This document shows, one piece after another, positions 42,745-49,599 of a stretch of 64,000 bases of DNA. Position 1 is the stretch's first letter. Each line of letters begins with the position of its first letter. The position numbers were made by a program, and so were the translations under genes. A model generated the notes under the pieces. That model saw nothing but the letters and a program-made list of their open reading frames with translations. It ran no database searches and was not told the origin of the DNA. Origin of the DNA: Thermoproteota archaeon (GTDB lineage: Archaea > Korarchaeota > Korarchaeia > Korarchaeales > Korarchaeaceae); contig JAOZGC010000002.1 in NCBI GenBank assembly GCA_027491915.1, forward strand, positions 64,001-128,000, written 5' to 3'.

Positions 42745-44022
42745 TTGCCTCCCCAGAGAGCCGTCTATGCGGAGGACTACGGAACGTCTTACTTCAAATT
42801 CGGCCCCGTCTGGATAGGGAAATACCCGGAGATGGTAGAGAACAGGGGCTACTTTCCAAAGATATCCAAGGCCGTGGCTGAGATAAGGGGGATCGAGGCC
42901 AGGACCGTCGTGGTAGGCCCCGAGGTGTCGAACTACCTGGAATCCAGGGAAGAGTTGAGAAGGTTATACTATCCAATGCGAAACGGAGTTATCGATAGAG
43001 ATGATAGAAATGGGTGGTTAATTGTTAAAGAATTGACGAGATATGGGCTCAAGAAATTCGCCCCCGTCGGCCGCGAGTCACCCATCGGTCCCTTCGACGG
43101 CTTCTACGTTGTGGCCGCCCTGGCGGCCCAAGCCCCGAGGTACATGTACGAAGAAATCTTCTCGATACACGAGGAGATAAATTCTGAGGAGGGTGGATCT
43201 CTGGTGAAGGCCGTCACCATAATTCCGCAGCCCCTGGCGGTCGCGATAGCTGAGAAGGCCACCACCTGCACGGTCTTGGAGGCCGGCCACGGGAACACCC
43301 AAATAACCCCAATAAGCAGGGACGTCATAAGGTCGGCTCTGATACCTCTCAACCGCGGCGGCGCCGACTCGAACGCCATAACCGCCCAGATATTGAAAGA
43401 TCTTGGCTACGGAAACCTGGCTCGGGAAGAAAAATTCGTCAGGATCTTCAAGGAGATGGCCGGCCTCGTCCCGATAAACCTCGACGAGGCGGTAGAGTGG
43501 GCGAAATCCCATCCGGGCTCCCTCACGAGCTCTTTCACCGTGCCGGGAACCACCGTCAAGGTCGACATGGGGGAGAAGGCCTGGCAGCGCTTCCTGATAG
43601 GGGAGTACTTCTTCAATCCTGGCCACGAGATGTTTGAGAGCTACTATTCGGTGGGATTCACTCCCCCGAGGGACACCGTCCTGCCGGGGGAGACCATCCC
43701 GGGAGACGTTTCCCTGGCCGAGGCCATCCTCATGGCCGTGCGTAAGACACCCGTCGAGATACAACCCGGACTGCTCAGTAAGATCCTCCTATCCGGAGGG
43801 GCCTTCGGCTGGAGGGTGCCAGCTGGCCTGGAGGGAATAGCAGCCGACGCGACCCAGAAGCTGGAGACCATGCTCAGATCCCTTGGCGTGTCGACCTCCC
43901 CGAAGATGGTGGCGGAGCCCCAGTTCTCCGTGTGGCGCGGCTCGATGGTCTACGGACTGTACCTACCCGAGAGGCTCAGGTGGAGCTGGAAGAGCATGGA
44001 AGGGTGGCATCAGATAAGTTGA
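42745..44022 (+). CDS. Crenactin (archaeal actin)
   Basis: DYGTSYFKFGP, PQPLAVAIAE, EAGHGNTQITPIS, LNRGGA, ILLSGGAFGWRVP, EPQFSVWRG; close to Pyrobaculum crenactin as I recall it. Confidence 0.93.
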   Translation: MPPQRAVYAEDYGTSYFKFGPVWIGKYPEMVENRGYFPKISKAVAEIRGIEARTVVVGPEVSNYLESREELRRLYYPMRNGVIDRDDRNGWLIVKELTRYGLKKFAPVGRESPIGPFDGFYVVAALAAQAPRYMYEEIFSIHEEINSEEGGSLVKAVTIIPQPLAVAIAEKATTCTVLEAGHGNTQITPISRDVIRSALIPLNRGGADSNAITAQILKDLGYGNLAREEKFVRIFKEMAGLVPINLDEAVEWAKSHPGSLTSSFTVPGTTVKVDMGEKAWQRFLIGEYFFNPGHEMFESYYSVGFTPPRDTVLPGETIPGDVSLAEAILMAVRKTPVEIQPGLLSKILLSGGAFGWRVPAGLEGIAADATQKLETMLRSLGVSTSPKMVAEPQFSVWRGSMVYGLYLPERLRWSWKSMEGWHQIS

Positions 44023-44768
44023 CGATCTAGGACCATCTTCCTGAACTCTAGGGCGTTGTTCCACATGTCCATATTGTTAAAGAGTACGTAGGCTTCTTTT
44101 TTGTTCATTTTTTCTAATTTACCCAACAAATCCTGAAATTCTTGAGTTGAATATGAATATTTATATAAAATTTTTCCATCCTTTCTCCCACCGTGTAGCC
44201 TGAAATAGGCCAAGTCTGAGCCGTCCAGAGGCCTCCGGTAGAAGGGATCCACGACGTGAATTAAATCCAGGTCGTCTAGGAGTCTGATGAGGCCGCGCTC
44301 GTCGATCCACCAACTCTCGTCTCTCGGTTCCCACCCAACCGCGAGCCCTCCCCTATCCAGAGATGAGAAGAAATCTCTCAGATCCCTCTCCGTGAGATCC
44401 GATCTCCTGAACGACGGTGGGGACTGGAAGATCACTATCTTGGAGCCCAACTTCGCCGCCACGACCCTCACCATCTCCCAAGCGGTGAAATTCCCCTCGG
44501 TGGGCCTGAGCATCCCACAATCCGCGCAATCTATTCCGGCCTTCCGCCACACCGGTCCCCCGGGGCGGTGGGTTATGGCCGCCCAGGCCTTCAACGTGTA
44601 CTCAAAATCCTTCGGCGACTCCTTCCTCCATCTCTCCACGGTCGACGCGCGGGGGATCCGGTAGAATGTACGCTGAATTTCCACCAGACCGAATTCCCTG
44701 AAATACCTCTTCCTGGAGGTCGGGAATCCGCAGCAGCCTACCTTCACCCTCATCGGGCGTCTCAACAT
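44010..44768 (-). CDS. DUF72 family protein
   Basis: VGCCGF, VEIQRTFY, LKAW..ITH, FQSPPSF, WEPR, YFRLHG, YVLFNN. Confidence 0.92.
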   Translation of the reverse strand: MLRRPMRVKVGCCGFPTSRKRYFREFGLVEIQRTFYRIPRASTVERWRKESPKDFEYTLKAWAAITHRPGGPVWRKAGIDCADCGMLRPTEGNFTAWEMVRVVAAKLGSKIVIFQSPPSFRRSDLTERDLRDFFSSLDRGGLAVGWEPRDESWWIDERGLIRLLDDLDLIHVVDPFYRRPLDGSDLAYFRLHGGRKDGKILYKYSYSTQEFQDLLGKLEKMNKKEAYVLFNNMDMWNNALEFRKMVLDRQLI

Positions 44769-44790: not shown

Positions 44791-45828
44791 GTGCGCCCTC
44801 CCAGATGGCCTATGGACCTCCCCTCAGAGGTCTACGAGATAGCCCGTGATATACGCGACATGAAGATCAGGGGAGCCGGTAGAATAGCCAGGGCGGCCGC
44901 CAAAGCTCTCCTGAAGGTGGCGCGGGAATACGAGGCCAAGGACGCGGATGATCTGGTTTCTGCGCTGCTGAGGGCATCTAAACTGCTCGTTGAGACGAGG
45001 CCGACCGCGGTCTCCCTGCCCAACGCCCTCAGGTACGTCGTGGTTAGGGTGCTGGAGGGGGTCGATAGGGGGTACGATCTGAGTGGCATAAGGGAAATCG
45101 CGTCAAAGGCTGCCGAGGAATTTACTGAGTTTTCAACACGAGCGGTCGAATACATCTCAAAATTTGGCTCACACAGGATCAGAGACGGTGATCTGATAAT
45201 GACCCACTGCAACTCGGACGCGGCGATCTCCACCCTGATACAGGCCTGGGAGGAGGGGAAAAGGTTCGAGGTCCTGGCCACCGAGACGCGGCCCAGGTTT
45301 CAGGGGAGGCTAACAGCCGCCAGGCTGGCGGATGCCGGAATCCCAGTGACCCTGATAGTGGACTCGGCGGCCAGGTACTTCATGGAAGACGTCGACGCCG
45401 TGATCGTCGGGGCGGATGCCGTCGCGGCCAACGGAGCCGTGGTGAACAAGATAGGAACCTCTTCCATAGCCCTGGCGGCCCACGAAGCCAGAGTTAACTT
45501 CTTCGTCGCGGCCGAGACCTACAAATTCTCTCCAGAGACCATGCTCGGTTCCCTCATAAGGATAGAGGAGAGAGATCCGTCCGAGGTGGTGGACCGTGAT
45601 TTCCTGGCCGCCCACCCGAACGTCAAGGTTAGAAATCCGGCCTTTGACGTGACTCCTGCGATGTATATAGACCTGATAATAACCGAGAAGGGAGTCATTC
45701 CACCCAGCGCCGCGGTGATAATACTGAAGGAGGAATACGGGTGGTTCACGAGGTCCAGGCTCCCAGAGTTTCTCACAGGCGGGTTGGGGTCGGCCAGGAT
45801 AGAGGAAGACTCCCCCACCACGGCCTGA
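44791..45828 (+). CDS. Ribose-1,5-bisphosphate isomerase
   Basis: MKIRGAG, TRPTAVSLPNA, MTHCNS (catalytic Cys), ETRPRFQG, VGADA, NKIGT, NPAFDVTP; alternative ATG at 44811. Confidence 0.92.
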   Translation: MRPPRWPMDLPSEVYEIARDIRDMKIRGAGRIARAAAKALLKVAREYEAKDADDLVSALLRASKLLVETRPTAVSLPNALRYVVVRVLEGVDRGYDLSGIREIASKAAEEFTEFSTRAVEYISKFGSHRIRDGDLIMTHCNSDAAISTLIQAWEEGKRFEVLATETRPRFQGRLTAARLADAGIPVTLIVDSAARYFMEDVDAVIVGADAVAANGAVVNKIGTSSIALAAHEARVNFFVAAETYKFSPETMLGSLIRIEERDPSEVVDRDFLAAHPNVKVRNPAFDVTPAMYIDLIITEKGVIPPSAAVIILKEEYGWFTRSRLPEFLTGGLGSARIEEDSPTTA

Positions 45829-45830
45829 GA

Positions 45831-46925
45831 TCACGGCCTGTACCCCCATCTCTCTAGGGCTATCCTCAGATCCTCGCTCACTTTTGCAGCCTCTAAAACA
45901 GTCTCTCCCCTCAAAAAAGCGTCTATCGCCTGCCTGATTGCTGAGATCCCACTTTCCTCTCCGTTCGGATGGAGCCATGGAGAGTCCGGCATTATTAGTA
46001 CTTCCTCAATAGAGTTCTCCAGATTAGATTCCACGGTTCCAGGGTGGATCGCCCCCTGTATCACCGGCATGGACTTCCCGATCCGGTCCTCAGAGGTCAG
46101 CGCGTTCACGGCCCGCCTGAATTCCCAAACATCCGTCCCGTTCCCAACCGCCGGAACTCCCACCATGCTGCCGCCGAGCAGCCTGGCCAGGCGGCACCTG
46201 GCCGGAGGAGACAGGCCCTCCGTCTCCCTACCGTAGACGAAAATGGGGACCGCACCGAGATTCCTCCTGAACTCCAAGAGCCCCATCCAACCTCCATATC
46301 TGAGAGAGAAGCCCAGCAGCCTCGCTCCAGAATCCATGGCTCTATTGGCGTTTTCCACCGCCTTCCACCCTGACACGTTCACCACGTAGTCCACCCTACG
46401 CCCGGTCTCCTCTCTGACCCTGTCTCTCATGTCGGCAATATGCGACGACCTGGCGCTTACCTCATCAGGCTTGACCAGCCAAGGGGGATCTACTCCGACG
46501 TCCAGGCCCCTGAGGGCAAGCTCGTAGAACCTGCGCCCCACATCAGCCGGGGCCGCGCCCGGAGGAAGTCTGATGTGGGAGGCTACTCCCGGGCCCCTCA
46601 GCCCCAGTTCCCTGGACAGGTCGATCAGCCCAACCCCGGGCCCGCCGAGGCGGGATTCGACGTCGGGGGGAACCTCGAAGTCGTTCACCATCCCCACCCG
46701 GGTCAAGTCACCGAGCACCCCTATCAGGGCCTGCTCTCCCAAATCCCGGAGGATCTCAGGCGGCAGTCGTATGGTGATCCTATCACCGTGGGTTTCTACC
46801 CTTCCCCCCATGAAAGAGGCCCACTTCTCCGCCATCTCCACGGAGTCGGAGATAGAGACCGACCCGGTCAGGTTCACCTCTATTAGTATCGTCCGCCCCG
46901 AATCCGACCCAGCCAGCGGGGCCAC
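45831..46925 (-). CDS. RuBisCO large-subunit-like protein (Form III-derived), catalytic residues lost
   Basis: GPGVG, DRVREETG..YVVNVS, GGWMGL, PV..GAIHPG, HPNG..SGISAIRQAIDA, ALERWG match Form III; KDDE is replaced by VDPP. Confidence 0.8.
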   Translation of the reverse strand: MAPLAGSDSGRTILIEVNLTGSVSISDSVEMAEKWASFMGGRVETHGDRITIRLPPEILRDLGEQALIGVLGDLTRVGMVNDFEVPPDVESRLGGPGVGLIDLSRELGLRGPGVASHIRLPPGAAPADVGRRFYELALRGLDVGVDPPWLVKPDEVSARSSHIADMRDRVREETGRRVDYVVNVSGWKAVENANRAMDSGARLLGFSLRYGGWMGLLEFRRNLGAVPIFVYGRETEGLSPPARCRLARLLGGSMVGVPAVGNGTDVWEFRRAVNALTSEDRIGKSMPVIQGAIHPGTVESNLENSIEEVLIMPDSPWLHPNGEESGISAIRQAIDAFLRGETVLEAAKVSEDLRIALERWGYRP

Positions 46926-46975
46926 CCACCACCTCCCGGCCGGGTCGTTATAATCTTCCCCCGTCCTCCGGGCCG

Positions 46976-48226
46976 GTGCCGGTGGAATTAGACCTGGACC
47001 CCGGAGAGGGCCTGCTGGTGAGAACGCCGTGCTATCTCTCGATGGCCGGCGGCGACGTGGACGTCTGGGGCCTACCCCTGGAGGGAGGCCAGCTTAGGAT
47101 AGGAATCCCGGAGCTCACCCTCCTTGTGACCGCGCGCTCTCGAACGACGCTGAGACTGGAGGCGGTCGGCCACAGGATCGTGAGGAACCCAATACCTGAG
47201 GAGTGGTGGTCGGCCGCCGAGAAGGCCAGGGATGCGGAGAGGGTAGTCATACTGGGCGAGACCGACTCTGGGAAGAGCGGGCTTCTCTTCTACCTGGCGA
47301 ACGTCCTCTCCATATCGGGACTGAGGGTGGGAATCGTGGACTCTGACCTGGGCCAGAAGGACCTGGGCCCTCCGGCCACCGTGGCGGCGGCCGCCTTCGC
47401 CTCGCCGCCCCTCCACCCCGGCCTAGCCGAGCCGGAGTTCCTGTACTTCGTCGGAGATACAAGTCCCAGGGGGCACCTCCTTCAAGTGGTCGCCGGGGTG
47501 CGCTCATCTCTGGATTACCTGGGAAGACGCCCAGACGTCACCCTAGTAAACACCAGCGGGTACGTCTCCGGGAGCGCCGCCCGGGCGCTGAAGTATCACA
47601 AGCTGGAGGTGATCAGGCCTGATCTGGTCTTCGTAATCGGCGATCGGGGAGAGGTCTCCCACTTGCCGAGGGTGATTCCCCCAGGTCCGGAGGTCCAGAT
47701 CCTGCCAGGTCCTCCGTCCATAATCAAGAAAGACCGGTCCAGGAGATACGCCGTCAGGAGGGCCAGGTGGATCCGCTACCTGTCGGGCGCCTCTGAGACT
47801 AAAGTGGATTTCTCTGAGGTCAGGGCACTCGGAACCCTCCTCTTCACCGGAAGGCCGTCTCCGGCGGCAGCCTCGTTGGCGTCGGATCTTATCGGGAGGG
47901 AGATTAACTACCTGGAGATCTCCCCGGACGTAGTCTCCATCTTGGTCGAGGGGGGGCTCTCTAGGGCGGAGATCAGGGCACTCGCCTCGTCTTTCGGGGT
48001 TGAGGTTCGTGCCGCCGCGCCGTCCTCCTACGACGGCCTCCTGGTGGGTCTCATGTCTGAGACCGGAGGCTGTTTGGGTCTGGGACTGCTGTCGGACCTC
48101 AATCCAGGTGAGATGAGGGGTTCCGTGATCTCCAGGGTAAAGAAGTTCGCTTATGTTAAATTCGGATACATAAGACTCTCCAGATCCTTGGAGGAGATCG
48201 GGAGGAGGGAGGTGGCCGCACCGTGA
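46976..48226 (+). CDS. Clp1-family polynucleotide 5'-kinase
   Basis: GETDSGKS, DSDLGQ..LGPP, YFVG..SP, VNTSGY, lid RR..W..Y. Confidence 0.85.
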   Translation: MPVELDLDPGEGLLVRTPCYLSMAGGDVDVWGLPLEGGQLRIGIPELTLLVTARSRTTLRLEAVGHRIVRNPIPEEWWSAAEKARDAERVVILGETDSGKSGLLFYLANVLSISGLRVGIVDSDLGQKDLGPPATVAAAAFASPPLHPGLAEPEFLYFVGDTSPRGHLLQVVAGVRSSLDYLGRRPDVTLVNTSGYVSGSAARALKYHKLEVIRPDLVFVIGDRGEVSHLPRVIPPGPEVQILPGPPSIIKKDRSRRYAVRRARWIRYLSGASETKVDFSEVRALGTLLFTGRPSPAAASLASDLIGREINYLEISPDVVSILVEGGLSRAEIRALASSFGVEVRAAAPSSYDGLLVGLMSETGGCLGLGLLSDLNPGEMRGSVISRVKKFAYVKFGYIRLSRSLEEIGRREVAAP

Positions 48227-49599
48227 TGATCAAGAACTTCGGGGAGCTGCTGTCTAACGCCCCCTCGGAGGTCGACAGGAAGGCCCGCTGGCTGGCCCTG
48301 TCGGCCGTAGAGGCGGCCATACGGGAGGCTGATCCGGAGGAGGCAGTGACCTCCGCCTTATCGCTCTCTAGTGGCTCCATTGAACTCCGATCCGGCCAGA
48401 CTATTCCCCTAAGCGGAAGAGTATTCGTCGTCGGGGCAGGCAAAGCCACCGGCTTGATGTGCAAGGGGGTACTCAGAGTCCTGTCGGACCTCCCAGTAGA
48501 GGGCGCGGTGAACGTGCCCCGGGGGACCGAAGGACTATTCGATCTGAACAGCGTGGAGATCACGCCCGCGGGTCACCCCCTCCCGGATAGGGGAACCCTA
48601 GAGGGAACCCGCAAGATAGTGGAGATAGCCGAGAGATCCGGCGAGGGGGACGTCCTGATCGCCCTCATATCGGGCGGCGGGTCGGCGCTCATGGAGCTCC
48701 CTGAGGGCAATATATCTCTCAATGATCTGAGAAAAATGAACGATTTATTGATAAAATCCGGAGCTAAAATACAAGAAATAAACAGCGTTCGCAAGCACGT
48801 GTCCCGCGTCAAGGGGGGGAGGCTGGCGGCCTTGGCCCAGCCAGCCAGCGTGGTGTCCCTGATAATCTCAGACGTGATAGGAGACCCCCTGGACTCCATA
48901 GCCTCCGGGCCGACCGCCCCGGATCCGACTACCTATGAAGATGCCTGGGAAGTCATCCAGAAGTACGGACTCGGAGACGATATGCCGGAATCCATCTTGG
49001 AGGTACTCAAGAGGGGGATGAGGGGAGACCTGCCGGAGACCCCCAAGCCCGGGGATCCGGTTTTCGAAAACGTGGTCAACCTCATAGTCGCCAGCAATTG
49101 GGACTCTCTGAGGGCTGCCGAGGCCGTCCTCTCCCGAAATGGCGTTAGGGTCGTCAACTTGGGCCCCCTTGTGGAGGGAGAGGCGAGGCATGTGGGAGTC
49201 GTCCTGGCCTCGATCCTGAGGGCGGCCAGCGAGGGTAGATTTTCGACACCTCCTCCCGTGGCCCTGCTGGCCGGTGGAGAAACCACGGTGAGGGTGACCG
49301 GGAGCGGAATCGGCGGGAGAAATCAAGAGCTGGTGCTCGGCGCGGTCAAGAAGCTGGCTGGCCTGCGCGGAGTCGTTCTAACTTCTGTCGGGACCGACGG
49401 GGTAGACGGAGTCACCGAGGCGGCCGGGGCCCTGGCCGACGGATCAACCCTCGACAGGGCTTACTCCATGGGAATGGACCCTGATTTCTACTTGGAGAAC
49501 AACGACTCCAACACCTTCTTCGGCAGGTTGGGCGATCTCGTGGTGACCGGGCCCACCCTAACCAACGTCATGGACGTCATGGTGGGAGTGGCCCTGTGA
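48223..49599 (+). CDS. Glycerate 2-kinase (MOFRL family)
   Basis: GAGKA, GHPLPD, LISGGGSAL, KGGRL, SDVIGD, IASGPT, GGETTV, GGRNQE, GTDGVDG, TNVMD. Confidence 0.93.
   Translation: MMIKNFGELLSNAPSEVDRKARWLALSAVEAAIREADPEEAVTSALSLSSGSIELRSGQTIPLSGRVFVVGAGKATGLMCKGVLRVLSDLPVEGAVNVPRGTEGLFDLNSVEITPAGHPLPDRGTLEGTRKIVEIAERSGEGDVLIALISGGGSALMELPEGNISLNDLRKMNDLLIKSGAKIQEINSVRKHVSRVKGGRLAALAQPASVVSLIISDVIGDPLDSIASGPTAPDPTTYEDAWEVIQKYGLGDDMPESILEVLKRGMRGDLPETPKPGDPVFENVVNLIVASNWDSLRAAEAVLSRNGVRVVNLGPLVEGEARHVGVVLASILRAASEGRFSTPPPVALLAGGETTVRVTGSGIGGRNQELVLGAVKKLAGLRGVVLTSVGTDGVDGVTEAAGALADGSTLDRAYSMGMDPDFYLENNDSNTFFGRLGDLVVTGPTLTNVMDVMVGVAL

What the first reader, a model, noticed from the sequence alone, without database searches (positions are those of the whole stretch)
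44791..46925. Catalytically dead Form III RuBisCO paralog tail-to-tail with ribose-1,5-bisphosphate isomerase
Seen: an intact 364-aa ORF keeps Form III scaffold motifs (GP..G, DRV.EETG, NV, GW, HPG, HP.G...G..AIRQAIDA, ALERWG). By eye it has lost essentially all active-site residues: KPK to RLP, carbamylation motif KDDE to VDPP, HxHRA to FVYGR, loop-6 Lys absent, SGG to QGA, GGG to PDS; the N-domain is also shortened. Its stop lies 2 nt from the stop of R15P isomerase, which makes RuBP in the archaeal AMP/pentose-bisphosphate pathway. Known: most Form IV RLPs keep the KDDE-like metal site. Inference: the unbroken frame despite active-site loss suggests a selected pseudoenzyme, such as a structural or regulatory partner in a hetero-oligomer with an active RuBisCO, a scaffold for the isomerase, or a metabolite sensor. 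This is the best candidate here for an undescribed system.
Basis: partly seen in the sequence, partly recalled or inferred. Interest (0 to 1): 0.88.

Follow-up and report, generated by a model that had tools for sequence, protein, structure and literature searches.

The report
RuBisCO-fold protein without any catalytic residues
This archaeal gene encodes a well-folded relative of the CO2-fixing enzyme RuBisCO that has lost every catalytic residue yet is kept by selection in a group of related hot-environment archaea, so it is a candidate RuBisCO-derived protein with a new, still unknown job.

Summary
ORF 45831-46925 (-) encodes a 364-aa protein with a confident RuBisCO large-subunit fold (AF2 pLDDT 89; Foldseek TM 0.81-0.84). 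Aligned to the genome's own canonical type III RuBisCO, it has none of the 17 catalytic or substrate-binding residues. Its stop codon lies 2 nt from that of a bona fide ribose-1,5-bisphosphate isomerase.

It is not a one-off. Syntenic orthologs were found in 22 of 40 genomes of the same archaeal class. All 17 examined at residue level are equally "dead". Within-genus dN/dS is 0.05-0.20, so the gene is selected.

The clade is distinct and long-branched. It is not a recent copy of the resident rbcL (AU p 1e-6). It sits nearest a form III-related group, through a partly degenerate intermediate.

Ten genomes of one genus keep the protein but have no RuBisCO, isomerase or AMP phosphorylase. Two genomes keep that pathway but have lost the protein.

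Best reading: a dimeric RuBisCO-like protein incapable of carboxylase or enolase chemistry, with an accessory role independent of the AMP pathway. It may be co-regulated with a divergently transcribed Clp1-family kinase. It is a new variant of a known kind, of moderate interest.

The parts
45831..46925 (-). 364-aa RuBisCO-like protein (RLP) lacking all 17 catalytic and substrate-binding residues. It has a shortened N-domain plus a TIM barrel.
   Evidence: ORF. PF00016 C-terminal match. AF2 pLDDT 89, pTM 0.89. Foldseek TMq 0.81-0.84 to form III RuBisCO and MtnW. Residue patterns.
44791..45828 (+). Ribose-1,5-bisphosphate isomerase (e2b2), convergent with the RLP; the stops are 2 nt apart.
   Evidence: TIGR00511 433.9 bits against cut-off 314.1. 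Sequence of the junction. The same convergent pair in g2, g3, g5 and f2 loci.
46926..46975 (.). 50-bp divergent spacer between the RLP and the Clp1-like gene. A central palindromic TTATAA at 46948-46953 lies about 25 nt from both GTG starts. Inferred to be a shared archaeal TATA box for two leaderless transcripts.
   Evidence: Sequence. Orthologous spacers of 34-53 bp in g2 and g4 carry a central A/T-rich element at the same distance. Promoter function is an inference from established archaeal promoter architecture and was not tested.
46976..48226 (+). Clp1-family P-loop protein (416 aa), divergently transcribed from the RLP. This adjacency is conserved wherever the RLP is present and the flank was long enough to see it.
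   Evidence: PF16575 109.3 bits. tblastn synteny.
44010..44768 (-). DUF72 protein (252 aa), on the same strand as the RLP. In genus g4, where the isomerase is absent, it lies directly downstream of the RLP with overlapping ends.
   Evidence: PF01904 137.5 bits. Coordinates in L020-L022, L024 and L062.

Best explanation
The gene encodes a member of a clade-specific family of RuBisCO-like proteins that descends from a form III-type RuBisCO large subunit. It keeps the two-domain fold and probably the head-to-tail L2 dimer. It has lost the carbamylated lysine, both Mg2+ ligands, the acid/base residues and both phosphate-binding sites. It therefore cannot carry out carboxylation or the Mg-enolate chemistry shared by all characterised superfamily members (that shared chemistry is established knowledge, recalled).

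Purifying selection maintains it for an accessory function that does not depend on the AMP -> R15P -> RuBP -> 3-PGA pathway. That function is most likely non-catalytic, that is binding or structural, making it a pseudoenzyme. Its position next to e2b2 is then a historical relic of an e2b2-rbcL neighbourhood. Its conserved functional neighbour is more likely the divergently transcribed Clp1-family kinase, which shares a single central TATA-like element with it.

Shown here: fold, residue loss, family conservation, selection, phyletic independence and synteny. Inferred: dimer formation, the non-catalytic role, the relic origin and co-regulation with Clp1.
For: Fold:
- AF2 with a 21-row alignment gives pLDDT 89 and pTM 0.89.
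- The top Foldseek PDB hits are form III RuBisCOs 2d69 and 2cwx and MtnW 2zvi, with TMq 0.81-0.84.
- The family profile scores 190 bits to 6hun, 181 to 1geh and 174 to MtnW 2oek.

Residue loss:
- The 17 catalytic or binding columns are each 100% conserved in 28 canonical sequences.
- No canonical residue is retained at 13 of the 17 columns in any of the 16 family members. The exceptions are N123 in 4, K175 in 1, E204 in 3 and G381 in 4.
- Mean conservation at the 17 columns is 0.46 in the family against a family background of 0.50. 2313 of 10000 random column sets are as low.
- The conserved positions are mostly scaffold Gly, Pro, Arg and Trp shared with canonical enzymes.

Selection: dN/dS is 0.05-0.20 in 11 of 12 ortholog pairs (one pair was saturated), against 0.015-0.07 for the neighbouring isomerase in 8 pairs.

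Distribution:
- Family-type matches occur in 22 of 40 genomes of the class.
- The AMP pathway is absent from 0 of 21 g4 genomes' searches: no RbcL, R15Pi or AMPpase above cut-off. Ten of these genomes have the RLP.
- G004 and G008 have the pathway but no RLP and no remnant at the syntenic site.

Origin:
- The family plus the intermediate P0004 form one starred branch (99*, 100*).
- Joining the family to the resident canonical clade is rejected (p-AU 1e-6).
- The best tree joins it to an active form III-related group (support 74).
- The best NCBIfam model for P0004 is type III RuBisCO, at 283 bits.
- In 2 of the 16 canonical loci examined, e2b2 lies immediately upstream of rbcL (L035 and L050).

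Dimer: ESMFold2 homodimer score is 0.86 against a best control of 0.33. The three runs agree in at least 87% of contacts and the partner pLDDT is at least 88. The mark was reached by 20 of 30 proteins solved as pairs and by 1 of 23 solved as single chains. The interface is the canonical one, with the N-domain over the partner's barrel mouth. RuBisCO dimers are solved, so this pass may reflect likeness only.

Promoter: a central TATA-like element lies in the 34-53-bp RLP-Clp1 spacer in g1, g2 and g4.
Against: - No expression, binding or activity data exist for any member.
- dN/dS could not be measured on the window protein's own branch, because its nearest relative is only 36-40% identical.
- The window protein departs from its own family at family-specific conserved positions: R257 is V, D273 is V, D313 is P, and S154/P155 are D/E.
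- Several replaced positions are fairly conserved within the family: G403 to D in 14 of 16, D203 to P in 12 of 16, R295 to G in 11 of 16, G404 to E in 11 of 16, K175 to R in 10 of 16 and H327 to E in 10 of 16. These could form a new polar site, so catalysis of a different kind is not excluded.
- The protein was lost repeatedly (11 of 21 g4 genomes and 2 of 4 g5 genomes), so its function is dispensable.
- The form III placement has weak support, and a grouping with the MtnW-containing form IV clade is not rejected (p-AU 0.114).
- The groups used in the AU tests were named after the tree had been seen.
- Residue patterns were checked in 17 of the 22 genomes. For G041, G042, G044, G046 and G049 only the match and frame length were seen.
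Confidence: 0.55

Rival explanations
1. It is still an enzyme, but with a rebuilt active site in the same barrel mouth that acts on a substrate which is not a bisphosphate. The site would use the family-conserved Arg at the K175 position, the retained Asp at D202, the Glu-Arg pair at the end of strand 6 and the Asp-Glu pair that replaces the P1 phosphate-binding glycines.
For: Selection is fairly strong (dN/dS 0.05-0.20). Replacement residues recur within the family: D at G403 in 14 of 16, E at G404 in 11 of 16, R at K175 in 10 of 16, E at H327 in 10 of 16 and R at position 257 in 88% of 17 rows. The predicted dimer still places the partner's N-domain over the barrel mouth. Other RLPs have evolved new reactions (recalled knowledge; the MtnW label comes).
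Against: No polar residue at the barrel mouth is invariant across the family. The invariant residues are scaffold positions shared with canonical RuBisCO. The window protein itself lacks the Glu-Arg pair and the first Asp. The 17 former site columns are no more conserved than the background. All characterised superfamily enzymes use the Lys-carbamate/Mg site, which is absent here (recalled).
Confidence: 0.25
2. One reading: it is a non-catalytic partner that forms hetero-oligomers with the active RuBisCO, or that scaffolds or regulates the adjacent R15P isomerase.
For: The window genome holds a canonical rbcL, the isomerase and two AMP phosphorylases. The convergent isomerase/RLP pair is conserved in g1, g2, g3, g5 and f2. 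The canonical dimer interface appears to be retained, so heterodimers with a paralog are conceivable.
Against: Ten g4 genomes keep the RLP, under purifying selection in the four compared, although none of the 21 g4 genomes has RbcL, R15Pi or AMPpase above cut-off. Two g5 genomes keep the pathway without the RLP. The two genes are convergent and so not co-transcribed. A heterodimer would complete neither active site, because both the barrel residues and the N-domain residues are lost. The RLP is not a recent duplicate of the resident rbcL.
Confidence: 0.08
3. In this particular reduced genome (1.12 Mb) the gene is an intact but decaying relic on its way to loss, even though the family is functional elsewhere.
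For: The window protein has one of the three longest terminal branches in the tree (1.54). It is changed at five family-specific conserved positions. The family has been lost repeatedly in relatives. No closer relative exists with which to measure constraint.
Against: The 364-codon frame is unbroken in roughly 60% G+C DNA. All 19 family-invariant residues are present, since they are invariant columns that include this row. The fold prediction is confident throughout apart from residues 1-9. The TATA-like element and the start-codon spacing are intact.
Confidence: 0.1

Closest known systems
Form III (archaeal) RuBisCO of the AMP / pentose-bisphosphate pathway, for example the Thermococcus kodakarensis, Pyrococcus horikoshii and Hyperthermus butylicus enzymes (PDB 1geh, 3a12, 2cwx, 2d69, 6hun)
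   Same: The same two-domain fold and the best sequence-profile and structure matches. The predicted head-to-tail dimer. Position next to e2b2. Probable evolutionary source, through the intermediate P0004 and an active form III-related group.
   Different: None of the 17 catalytic or binding residues is present in the window protein. TIGR03326 scores 63.9 bits against a cut-off of 497. The N-domain is shortened. The protein persists in genomes without the pathway.
Form IV RuBisCO-like proteins with known chemistry: DK-MTP-1-P enolase MtnW/YkrW (PDB 2zvi, 2oek, 4nas)
   Same: A RuBisCO-fold protein that is not a carboxylase. Foldseek TMq 0.83-0.84 and profile score 174 bits. A grouping with the MtnW-containing clade is not statistically rejected (p-AU 0.114).
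   Different: The MtnW-type representatives in the tree keep K175, K201, D203, E204 and H294 (for example P0057, 652 bits to the MtnW model). The window family keeps none of these apart from one K175. It does not branch inside that clade.
Chlorobaculum tepidum RLP (IV-Photo; PDB 1ykw, 1tel), an RLP without a known reaction
   Same: A RuBisCO-fold homodimer with no assigned catalysis, and a structural match (ranks 17-19).
   Different: It is bacterial and a different clade. From recall, it retains more of the metal site. This was not tested here, because no sequence of it was in the alignments.
Phage and Beckwithbacteria 'form IV-like' RLPs (Jaffe et al., bioRxiv 10.1101/386292; passages read)
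   Same: Described there as highly divergent RLPs whose key residues differ strongly from known type IV, with function unclear. The nearest ESM-Atlas feature clusters to the window protein include short viral RuBisCO_large clusters (a lead only).
   Different: No relative of the family was found in viral contigs with the family's two conserved peptide patterns. The window family is chromosomal, syntenic and vertically inherited within one archaeal class.
Other K201-less RuBisCO-superfamily lineages seen among the search hits, for example the L043/P0017/P0035 group (L043's record title names a Brockarchaeota MAG)
   Same: Independent degeneration of the active site from form III-related ancestors. 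28 of 90 non-canonical representatives lack K201.
   Different: They lie on separate branches of the tree. The window family is degenerate at all sites and has its own conserved motifs: R-G-E at 339-341, E-A-N at 299-301 and S-P at 154-155.

Membership tests
Bona fide RuBisCO, form III | RuBisCO large-subunit fold (N-domain plus alpha/beta barrel) | tested here: met
   AF2 pLDDT 89. Foldseek TMq 0.81-0.84 to 2d69, 2cwx and 3a13.
Bona fide RuBisCO, form III | Carbamylated Lys (K201) and Mg ligands D203 and E204 | tested here: not met
   These positions are V, P and P in the window protein. K201 and D203 are retained in 0 of 16 family members.
Bona fide RuBisCO, form III | Catalytic and RuBP-binding residues K175, K177, H294, R295, H327, K334, S379, G381, G403 and G404, plus N-domain E60, T65, W66 and N123 | tested here: not met
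   All are replaced in the window protein (pattern ASFD|RPVPPY-G-QAPD).
Bona fide RuBisCO, form III | Score over the curated cut-off of the type III model (TIGR03326) | tested here: not met
   63.9 bits against 497.45. The resident canonical gene scores 616.8.
Bona fide RuBisCO, form III | Branches within form III in a superfamily tree | tested here: inconclusive
   It forms a separate long branch. The best tree puts it beside an active form III-related group with support 74. The root is unknown, and no labelled form I or form II references were included.
Form IV RuBisCO-like proteins (RLP) | RuBisCO homolog lacking residues essential for carboxylation | tested here: met
Form IV RuBisCO-like proteins (RLP) | Branches with the described form IV clades (YkrW, DeepYkr, Photo, NonPhoto and others; names recalled) | tested here: inconclusive
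   It is not inside the clade containing the MtnW-model proteins, but joining it to that clade is not rejected (p-AU 0.114). The other named form IV clades could not be labelled in the trees.
Form IV RuBisCO-like proteins (RLP) | No carboxylase activity; a different reaction or role | not testable with these tools
   This needs a biochemical assay.
Ribose-1,5-bisphosphate isomerase (neighbour gene) | Score over the curated cut-off of the equivalog model TIGR00511 | tested here: met
   433.9 bits against 314.1, covering profile positions 1-301.

The most novel reading that the evidence does not exclude
This may be the first RuBisCO-derived true pseudoenzyme. On this reading, a dimeric RuBisCO shell has been stripped of all chemistry and re-used as a non-catalytic binding or regulatory protein. 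It would be co-expressed from a shared bidirectional promoter with a Clp1-family polynucleotide or nucleotide kinase, linking it to RNA or nucleotide metabolism rather than to carbon fixation. It would have survived the loss of the whole AMP/RuBisCO pathway in one genus.
Probability: 0.25. Interest if true: 0.7.

Novelty: new variant of a known kind. Interest (0 to 1): 0.5.

Why it matters
RuBisCO-like proteins are the main window onto how the RuBisCO scaffold was re-used in evolution. From recall, every member with a known function still uses the Lys-carbamate/Mg site. This clade has lost all 17 site residues yet is conserved, syntenic and under purifying selection. It also comes with a partly degenerate intermediate and an active sister group. 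Together these would give a natural series for studying how an enzyme becomes a pseudoenzyme, or how an entirely new site arises. They would also show what the bare RuBisCO dimer can be used for.

There is a practical point as well. Such genes match RuBisCO domain models weakly (35 bits to PF00016, just over the cut-off). They can therefore be miscounted as carbon-fixation or AMP-pathway potential in metagenome surveys.

Tried and rejected
- **Word-based homolog search.** It found only the protein itself and one 27% relative, so it gave no family. The full HMMER scan and the genome searches did.
- **Genome-collection scan with the 21-row alignment.** An 8-row alignment worked. Most of its distant hits (L035-L051) proved to be active RuBisCOs.
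- **Viral contigs.** None of the 33 pattern matches encodes a relative of the family.
- **Sequencing runs.** None was listed and no RNA holder was listed.
- **Literature.**
  - No paper holds both 'rubisco-like' and 'pseudoenzyme'.
  - No paper holds the four ortholog accessions.
  - The Tabita 2007 review is not held, so the names of form IV subclades and their residue patterns are recalled only.
  - The DUF72/YecE search gave no function in the 15 listings shown.
  - In the Korarchaeota paper PMC12787533 I read only the passages around 'Rubisco', 'AMP phosphorylase' and 'genome size'. They mention form III-b rbcL, deoA and e2b2, but no RLP. Its supplements, which hold the tree and gene tables, could not be seen and may bear on whether the clade was noticed.
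  - I did not establish the taxon of the window genome beyond Thermoproteota, which comes from relatives' record titles and source names. A korarchaeal affiliation is only a guess.
- **AU test with the mixture model on 66 rows.** It did not finish. I reran it with 37 rows under LG+G4, a setting that rejects true clades somewhat more often.
- **Complex prediction.** RLP with RbcL, R15Pi or Clp1 was not tried.
- **Recent duplication of the resident rbcL.** Rejected.
- **Remnant of the RLP at the syntenic site of G004 and G008.** None was found by tblastn or blastn at E up to 10.
Full report
**What is there**

The window is G000:C4:64001-128000, from a 1.12-Mb genome in 4 contigs estimated 91% complete. 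It holds two convergent ORFs: 44791-45828 (+, 345 aa) and 45831-46925 (-, 364 aa, GTG start). Their stop codons are 2 nt apart.

The + gene is ribose-1,5-bisphosphate isomerase, scoring 433.9 bits to TIGR00511 against a cut-off of 314.1.

The - gene matches Pfam RuBisCO_large only over its last 78 residues (35.2 bits, cut-off 30.1). Its best NCBIfam models are type III RuBisCO (63.9 bits, cut-off 497) and the MtnW enolase (59.7 bits, cut-off 409).

The neighbouring genes are as follows:
- a crenactin-like gene (587 bits, just under its 630 cut-off) at 42745-44022 (+);
- a DUF72 gene at 44010-44768 (-);
- a Clp1-family P-loop gene at 46976-48226 (+);
- a glycerate-kinase-family gene (DUF4147 + MOFRL) at 48223-49599 (+).

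The same genome has a canonical type III RuBisCO (616.8 bits; locus L001), two AMP phosphorylases (634.9 and 598.5 bits, cut-off 535) and the isomerase. The AMP pathway is therefore complete.

I aligned the 364-aa protein to that resident enzyme by BLASTP (27% identity over 225 residues) and by MAFFT with 19 and 22 other sequences. In a 139-row alignment the window protein reads ASFD|RPVPPY-G-QAPD at the 17 columns where 28 canonical sequences read ETWN|KKKDEHRHKSGGG. The columns themselves were fixed by the resident enzyme.

The N-domain is shortened. The segment that carries the E60, T65 and W66 equivalents is missing.

**The fold is real**

With a 21-row family alignment, AlphaFold2 gives mean pLDDT 89 and pTM 0.89. 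Only residues 1-9 are poorly predicted. Foldseek against the PDB returns form III RuBisCOs (2d69, 2cwx, 3a13) and MtnW (2zvi, 2oej) at TMq 0.81-0.84. A profile of the family scores 190 bits to 6hun, 186 to 8dht, 181 to 1geh and 174 to MtnW 2oek.

**It is a family, not an accident**

A full HMMER scan of 1.84 billion representatives found 163 proteins at E <= 1e-3. Only 5 reached E <= 1e-30, one of which is the protein itself.

Genome searches gave more.
- Searching 41 related genomes with the protein gave matches in 26.
- Searching the 40 genomes of the class with the intermediate P0004 gave matches in 26 at E <= 1e-20.

Separating family-type matches from canonical ones, by score, frame length and synteny, I count the family in 22 of 40 genomes:

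| Group | Genomes with the RLP | Comment on the misses |
|---|---|---|
| own genome (g1) | 1 of 1 | |
| g2 | 4 of 5 | the miss is 72% complete |
| g3 | 4 of 5 | the miss is 75% complete |
| g5 | 2 of 4 | |
| g6 | 1 of 2 | the miss is 66% complete |
| g4 | 10 of 21 | |
| g7 | 0 of 2 | |

I examined 17 of the 22 at residue level. All lack the site. In the 16 family rows scored (the 17th, G043's protein, was read only at motif level), K201 and D203 are each retained in 0 of 16. For G041, G042, G044, G046 and G049 I saw only the match and the 358-364-codon frames.

**Selection**

Nei-Gojobori dN/dS between orthologs within genera is 0.05-0.20 in 11 of 12 pairs. One pair was saturated. The range includes 0.10-0.14 in g4. 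The adjacent isomerase gives 0.015-0.07 in 8 pairs. The protein is therefore constrained, though 3- to 6-fold less than a core enzyme.

The constraint lies on the scaffold. Of 80 columns that are at least 90% conserved in canonical enzymes, 28 keep the same residue in the family. Mean conservation at the 17 site columns is 0.46, against a family background of 0.50, and 2313 of 10000 random column sets are as low.

Some replacements recur:
- D at G403 in 14 of 16;
- P at D203 in 12 of 16;
- G at R295 in 11 of 16;
- E at G404 in 11 of 16;
- R at K175 in 10 of 16;
- E at H327 in 10 of 16.

Acidic residues in place of the P1 phosphate-binding glycines argue against any bisphosphate ligand. That is an inference.

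The family-specific conserved motifs are S-P (154-155), E-A-N (299-301), D335, R-G-E (339-341) and an Arg at position 257. The window protein has V at 257, V at 273, P at 313 and D-E at 154-155. It is thus an outlier within its own family.

**Synteny and the phyletic test**

The gene order crenactin, DUF72, isomerase (+), RLP (-), Clp1 (+), glycerate kinase is kept in g1, g2, g3 and g5. The convergent isomerase/RLP pair is also kept in f2.

In the five g4 loci I examined the isomerase is missing, and the RLP lies directly upstream of DUF72 on the same strand with overlapping ends.

Across the class, the pathway genes over their cut-offs are distributed as follows:
- canonical type III RuBisCO: 15 of 40 genomes;
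- the isomerase: 14 of 40;
- AMP phosphorylase: 16 of 40.

In g4 all three counts are 0 of 21. Many g4 genomes are 96-99% complete. The only trace of rbcL there is a 44-codon fragment with a TAG in G024. Ten g4 genomes nevertheless keep the RLP.

Conversely, G004 and G008 (g5) have the pathway, but their isomerase is followed directly by Clp1, with no RLP and no detectable remnant.

The RLP's presence is therefore independent of the pathway in both directions. This speaks against an obligate role as partner of RuBisCO or of the isomerase. It also shows that the function is dispensable.

**Origin**

In a FastTree of 134 rows, the 16 family rows form one side of a branch (support 93), and with P0004 a starred one (99).

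In an IQ-TREE LG+C20 quick tree of 66 rows, the family has support 98 and the family plus P0004 has 100. The joint branch attaches next to a group of fully active, form III-related enzymes. These score about 450 bits to the type III model, just under its 497 cut-off, and reach or nearly reach the cut-off of the large-subunit subfamily model.

P0004 keeps the E60, T65, W66, K175, K177 and E204 equivalents but has lost K201, D203, H294, K334 and the glycines. Its best model is type III RuBisCO at 283 bits.

The AU tests used 37 rows under LG+G4, and the groups were named after the tree had been seen.
- Holding the family with the resident canonical clade is rejected (delta lnL 101, p 1e-6).
- Holding it with the active form III-related group is already the best tree (support 74).
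- Holding it with the MtnW-containing clade is not rejected (p 0.114).

In 2 of the 16 canonical loci fetched (L035, L050), e2b2 lies immediately upstream of rbcL. I therefore read the RLP as the descendant of an old rbcL that sat beside e2b2. On this reading it was freed when a second, now resident, form III enzyme took over. This step is inferred.

**Quaternary structure and promoter**

A homodimer prediction passes, with score 0.86 against a best control of 0.33. The runs agree in at least 87% of contacts and the partner pLDDT is at least 88. The mark was reached by 20 of 30 proteins solved as pairs and by 1 of 23 solved as single chains. My own alignment was used, so these counts hold only roughly. 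The interface is the canonical head-to-tail one: residues 58-76 of one chain lie over the barrel-mouth loops 119-123, 147-152, 185-187, 207-215, 234-237, 291-292 and 314-318 of the other. Because RuBisCO dimers are solved, this shows likeness, not binding.

The 50-bp spacer between the RLP and the Clp1-like gene holds one palindromic TTATAA at 46948-46953, about 25 nt from each GTG start. The spacers in g2 (34-53 bp) and g4 (51-52 bp) have a central A/T-rich element at the same distance. In g3 the spacers are 129-131 bp. Given the usual position of archaeal TATA boxes (established knowledge), this suggests one bidirectional promoter and two leaderless mRNAs. It was not tested.

**How unusual is it**

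Among 90 non-canonical superfamily representatives in the same alignment, 62 keep K201 and 54 keep K201, D203 and E204 together. 28 lack K201. This set is biased towards relatives of a degenerate query and comes from a fast alignment. Degenerate RuBisCO-fold lineages are therefore not rare in metagenomes.

Jaffe et al. describe phage 'form IV-like' proteins with highly divergent key residues (passages read). Public sources already call orthologs 'ribulose 1,5-bisphosphate carboxylase large subunit-like protein'. I found no paper that describes this clade. The library is incomplete, however, and supplements were closed.

**Verdict**

The 'selected pseudoenzyme' idea is supported as far as sequence evidence can go. 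The specific partner hypotheses are not supported.

The best explanation (confidence 0.55) is a dimeric, non-carboxylating and non-enolising RuBisCO-like protein with an accessory role that is independent of the AMP pathway. The rivals are a rebuilt enzyme (0.25), a decaying relic in this genome (0.10) and a RuBisCO or isomerase partner (0.08).

It is a new variant of a known kind. Interest is 0.5.

Noticed in passing
L001:1120-1240 (G000:C4, canonical rbcL at about 338902-340155): The resident canonical type III RuBisCO matches its HMM from model position 1, starting 34 codons upstream of the first in-frame ATG, GTG or TTG. The conserved N-terminal peptide is preceded by ATC-TCT-CTG, so the gene either uses a non-standard start (CTG or ATC) or carries an assembly error. 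All 17 site residues are intact.
   Followed up: partly
L064:148-1470 (G006:C8) and L063:1968-3206 (G043:C9): Some relatives carry a further, more conventional RuBisCO-like paralog that keeps the K-D-D-E metal site. In G006 it scores best to the MtnW model (345 bits, below the cut-off) and lies about 10 kb from the dead RLP on the same contig. G043 has one although genus g4 lacks canonical RuBisCO.
   Followed up: partly
G024:C11:3672-3896: A 44-codon RuBisCO_large fragment with an internal TAG in a g4 genome. It may be the remnant of the lost canonical rbcL.
   Followed up: no
L043:1471-2703, with P0017 and P0035: A second, independent series of active-site decay branches within an active form III-related group (L043's record title names a Brockarchaeota MAG). 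The patterns run from KEKGEHGHNSGGL to GERVVLCE-VDNE.
   Followed up: partly
window 42745-44022 (+) and 44010-44768 (-): A crenactin-like gene (587 bits, just under the 630 cut-off) overlaps the 3' end of the DUF72 gene by 13 nt in convergent orientation. The block from crenactin through DUF72, (isomerase), RLP and Clp1 to glycerate kinase is conserved across the family of genomes.
   Followed up: partly
window 48223-48226: The Clp1-like gene and the glycerate-kinase-family gene overlap by 4 nt (ORFs 46976-48226 and 48223-49599). This suggests one transcription unit divergent from the RLP. The same pair is adjacent in g2, g3 and g5 loci.
   Followed up: no
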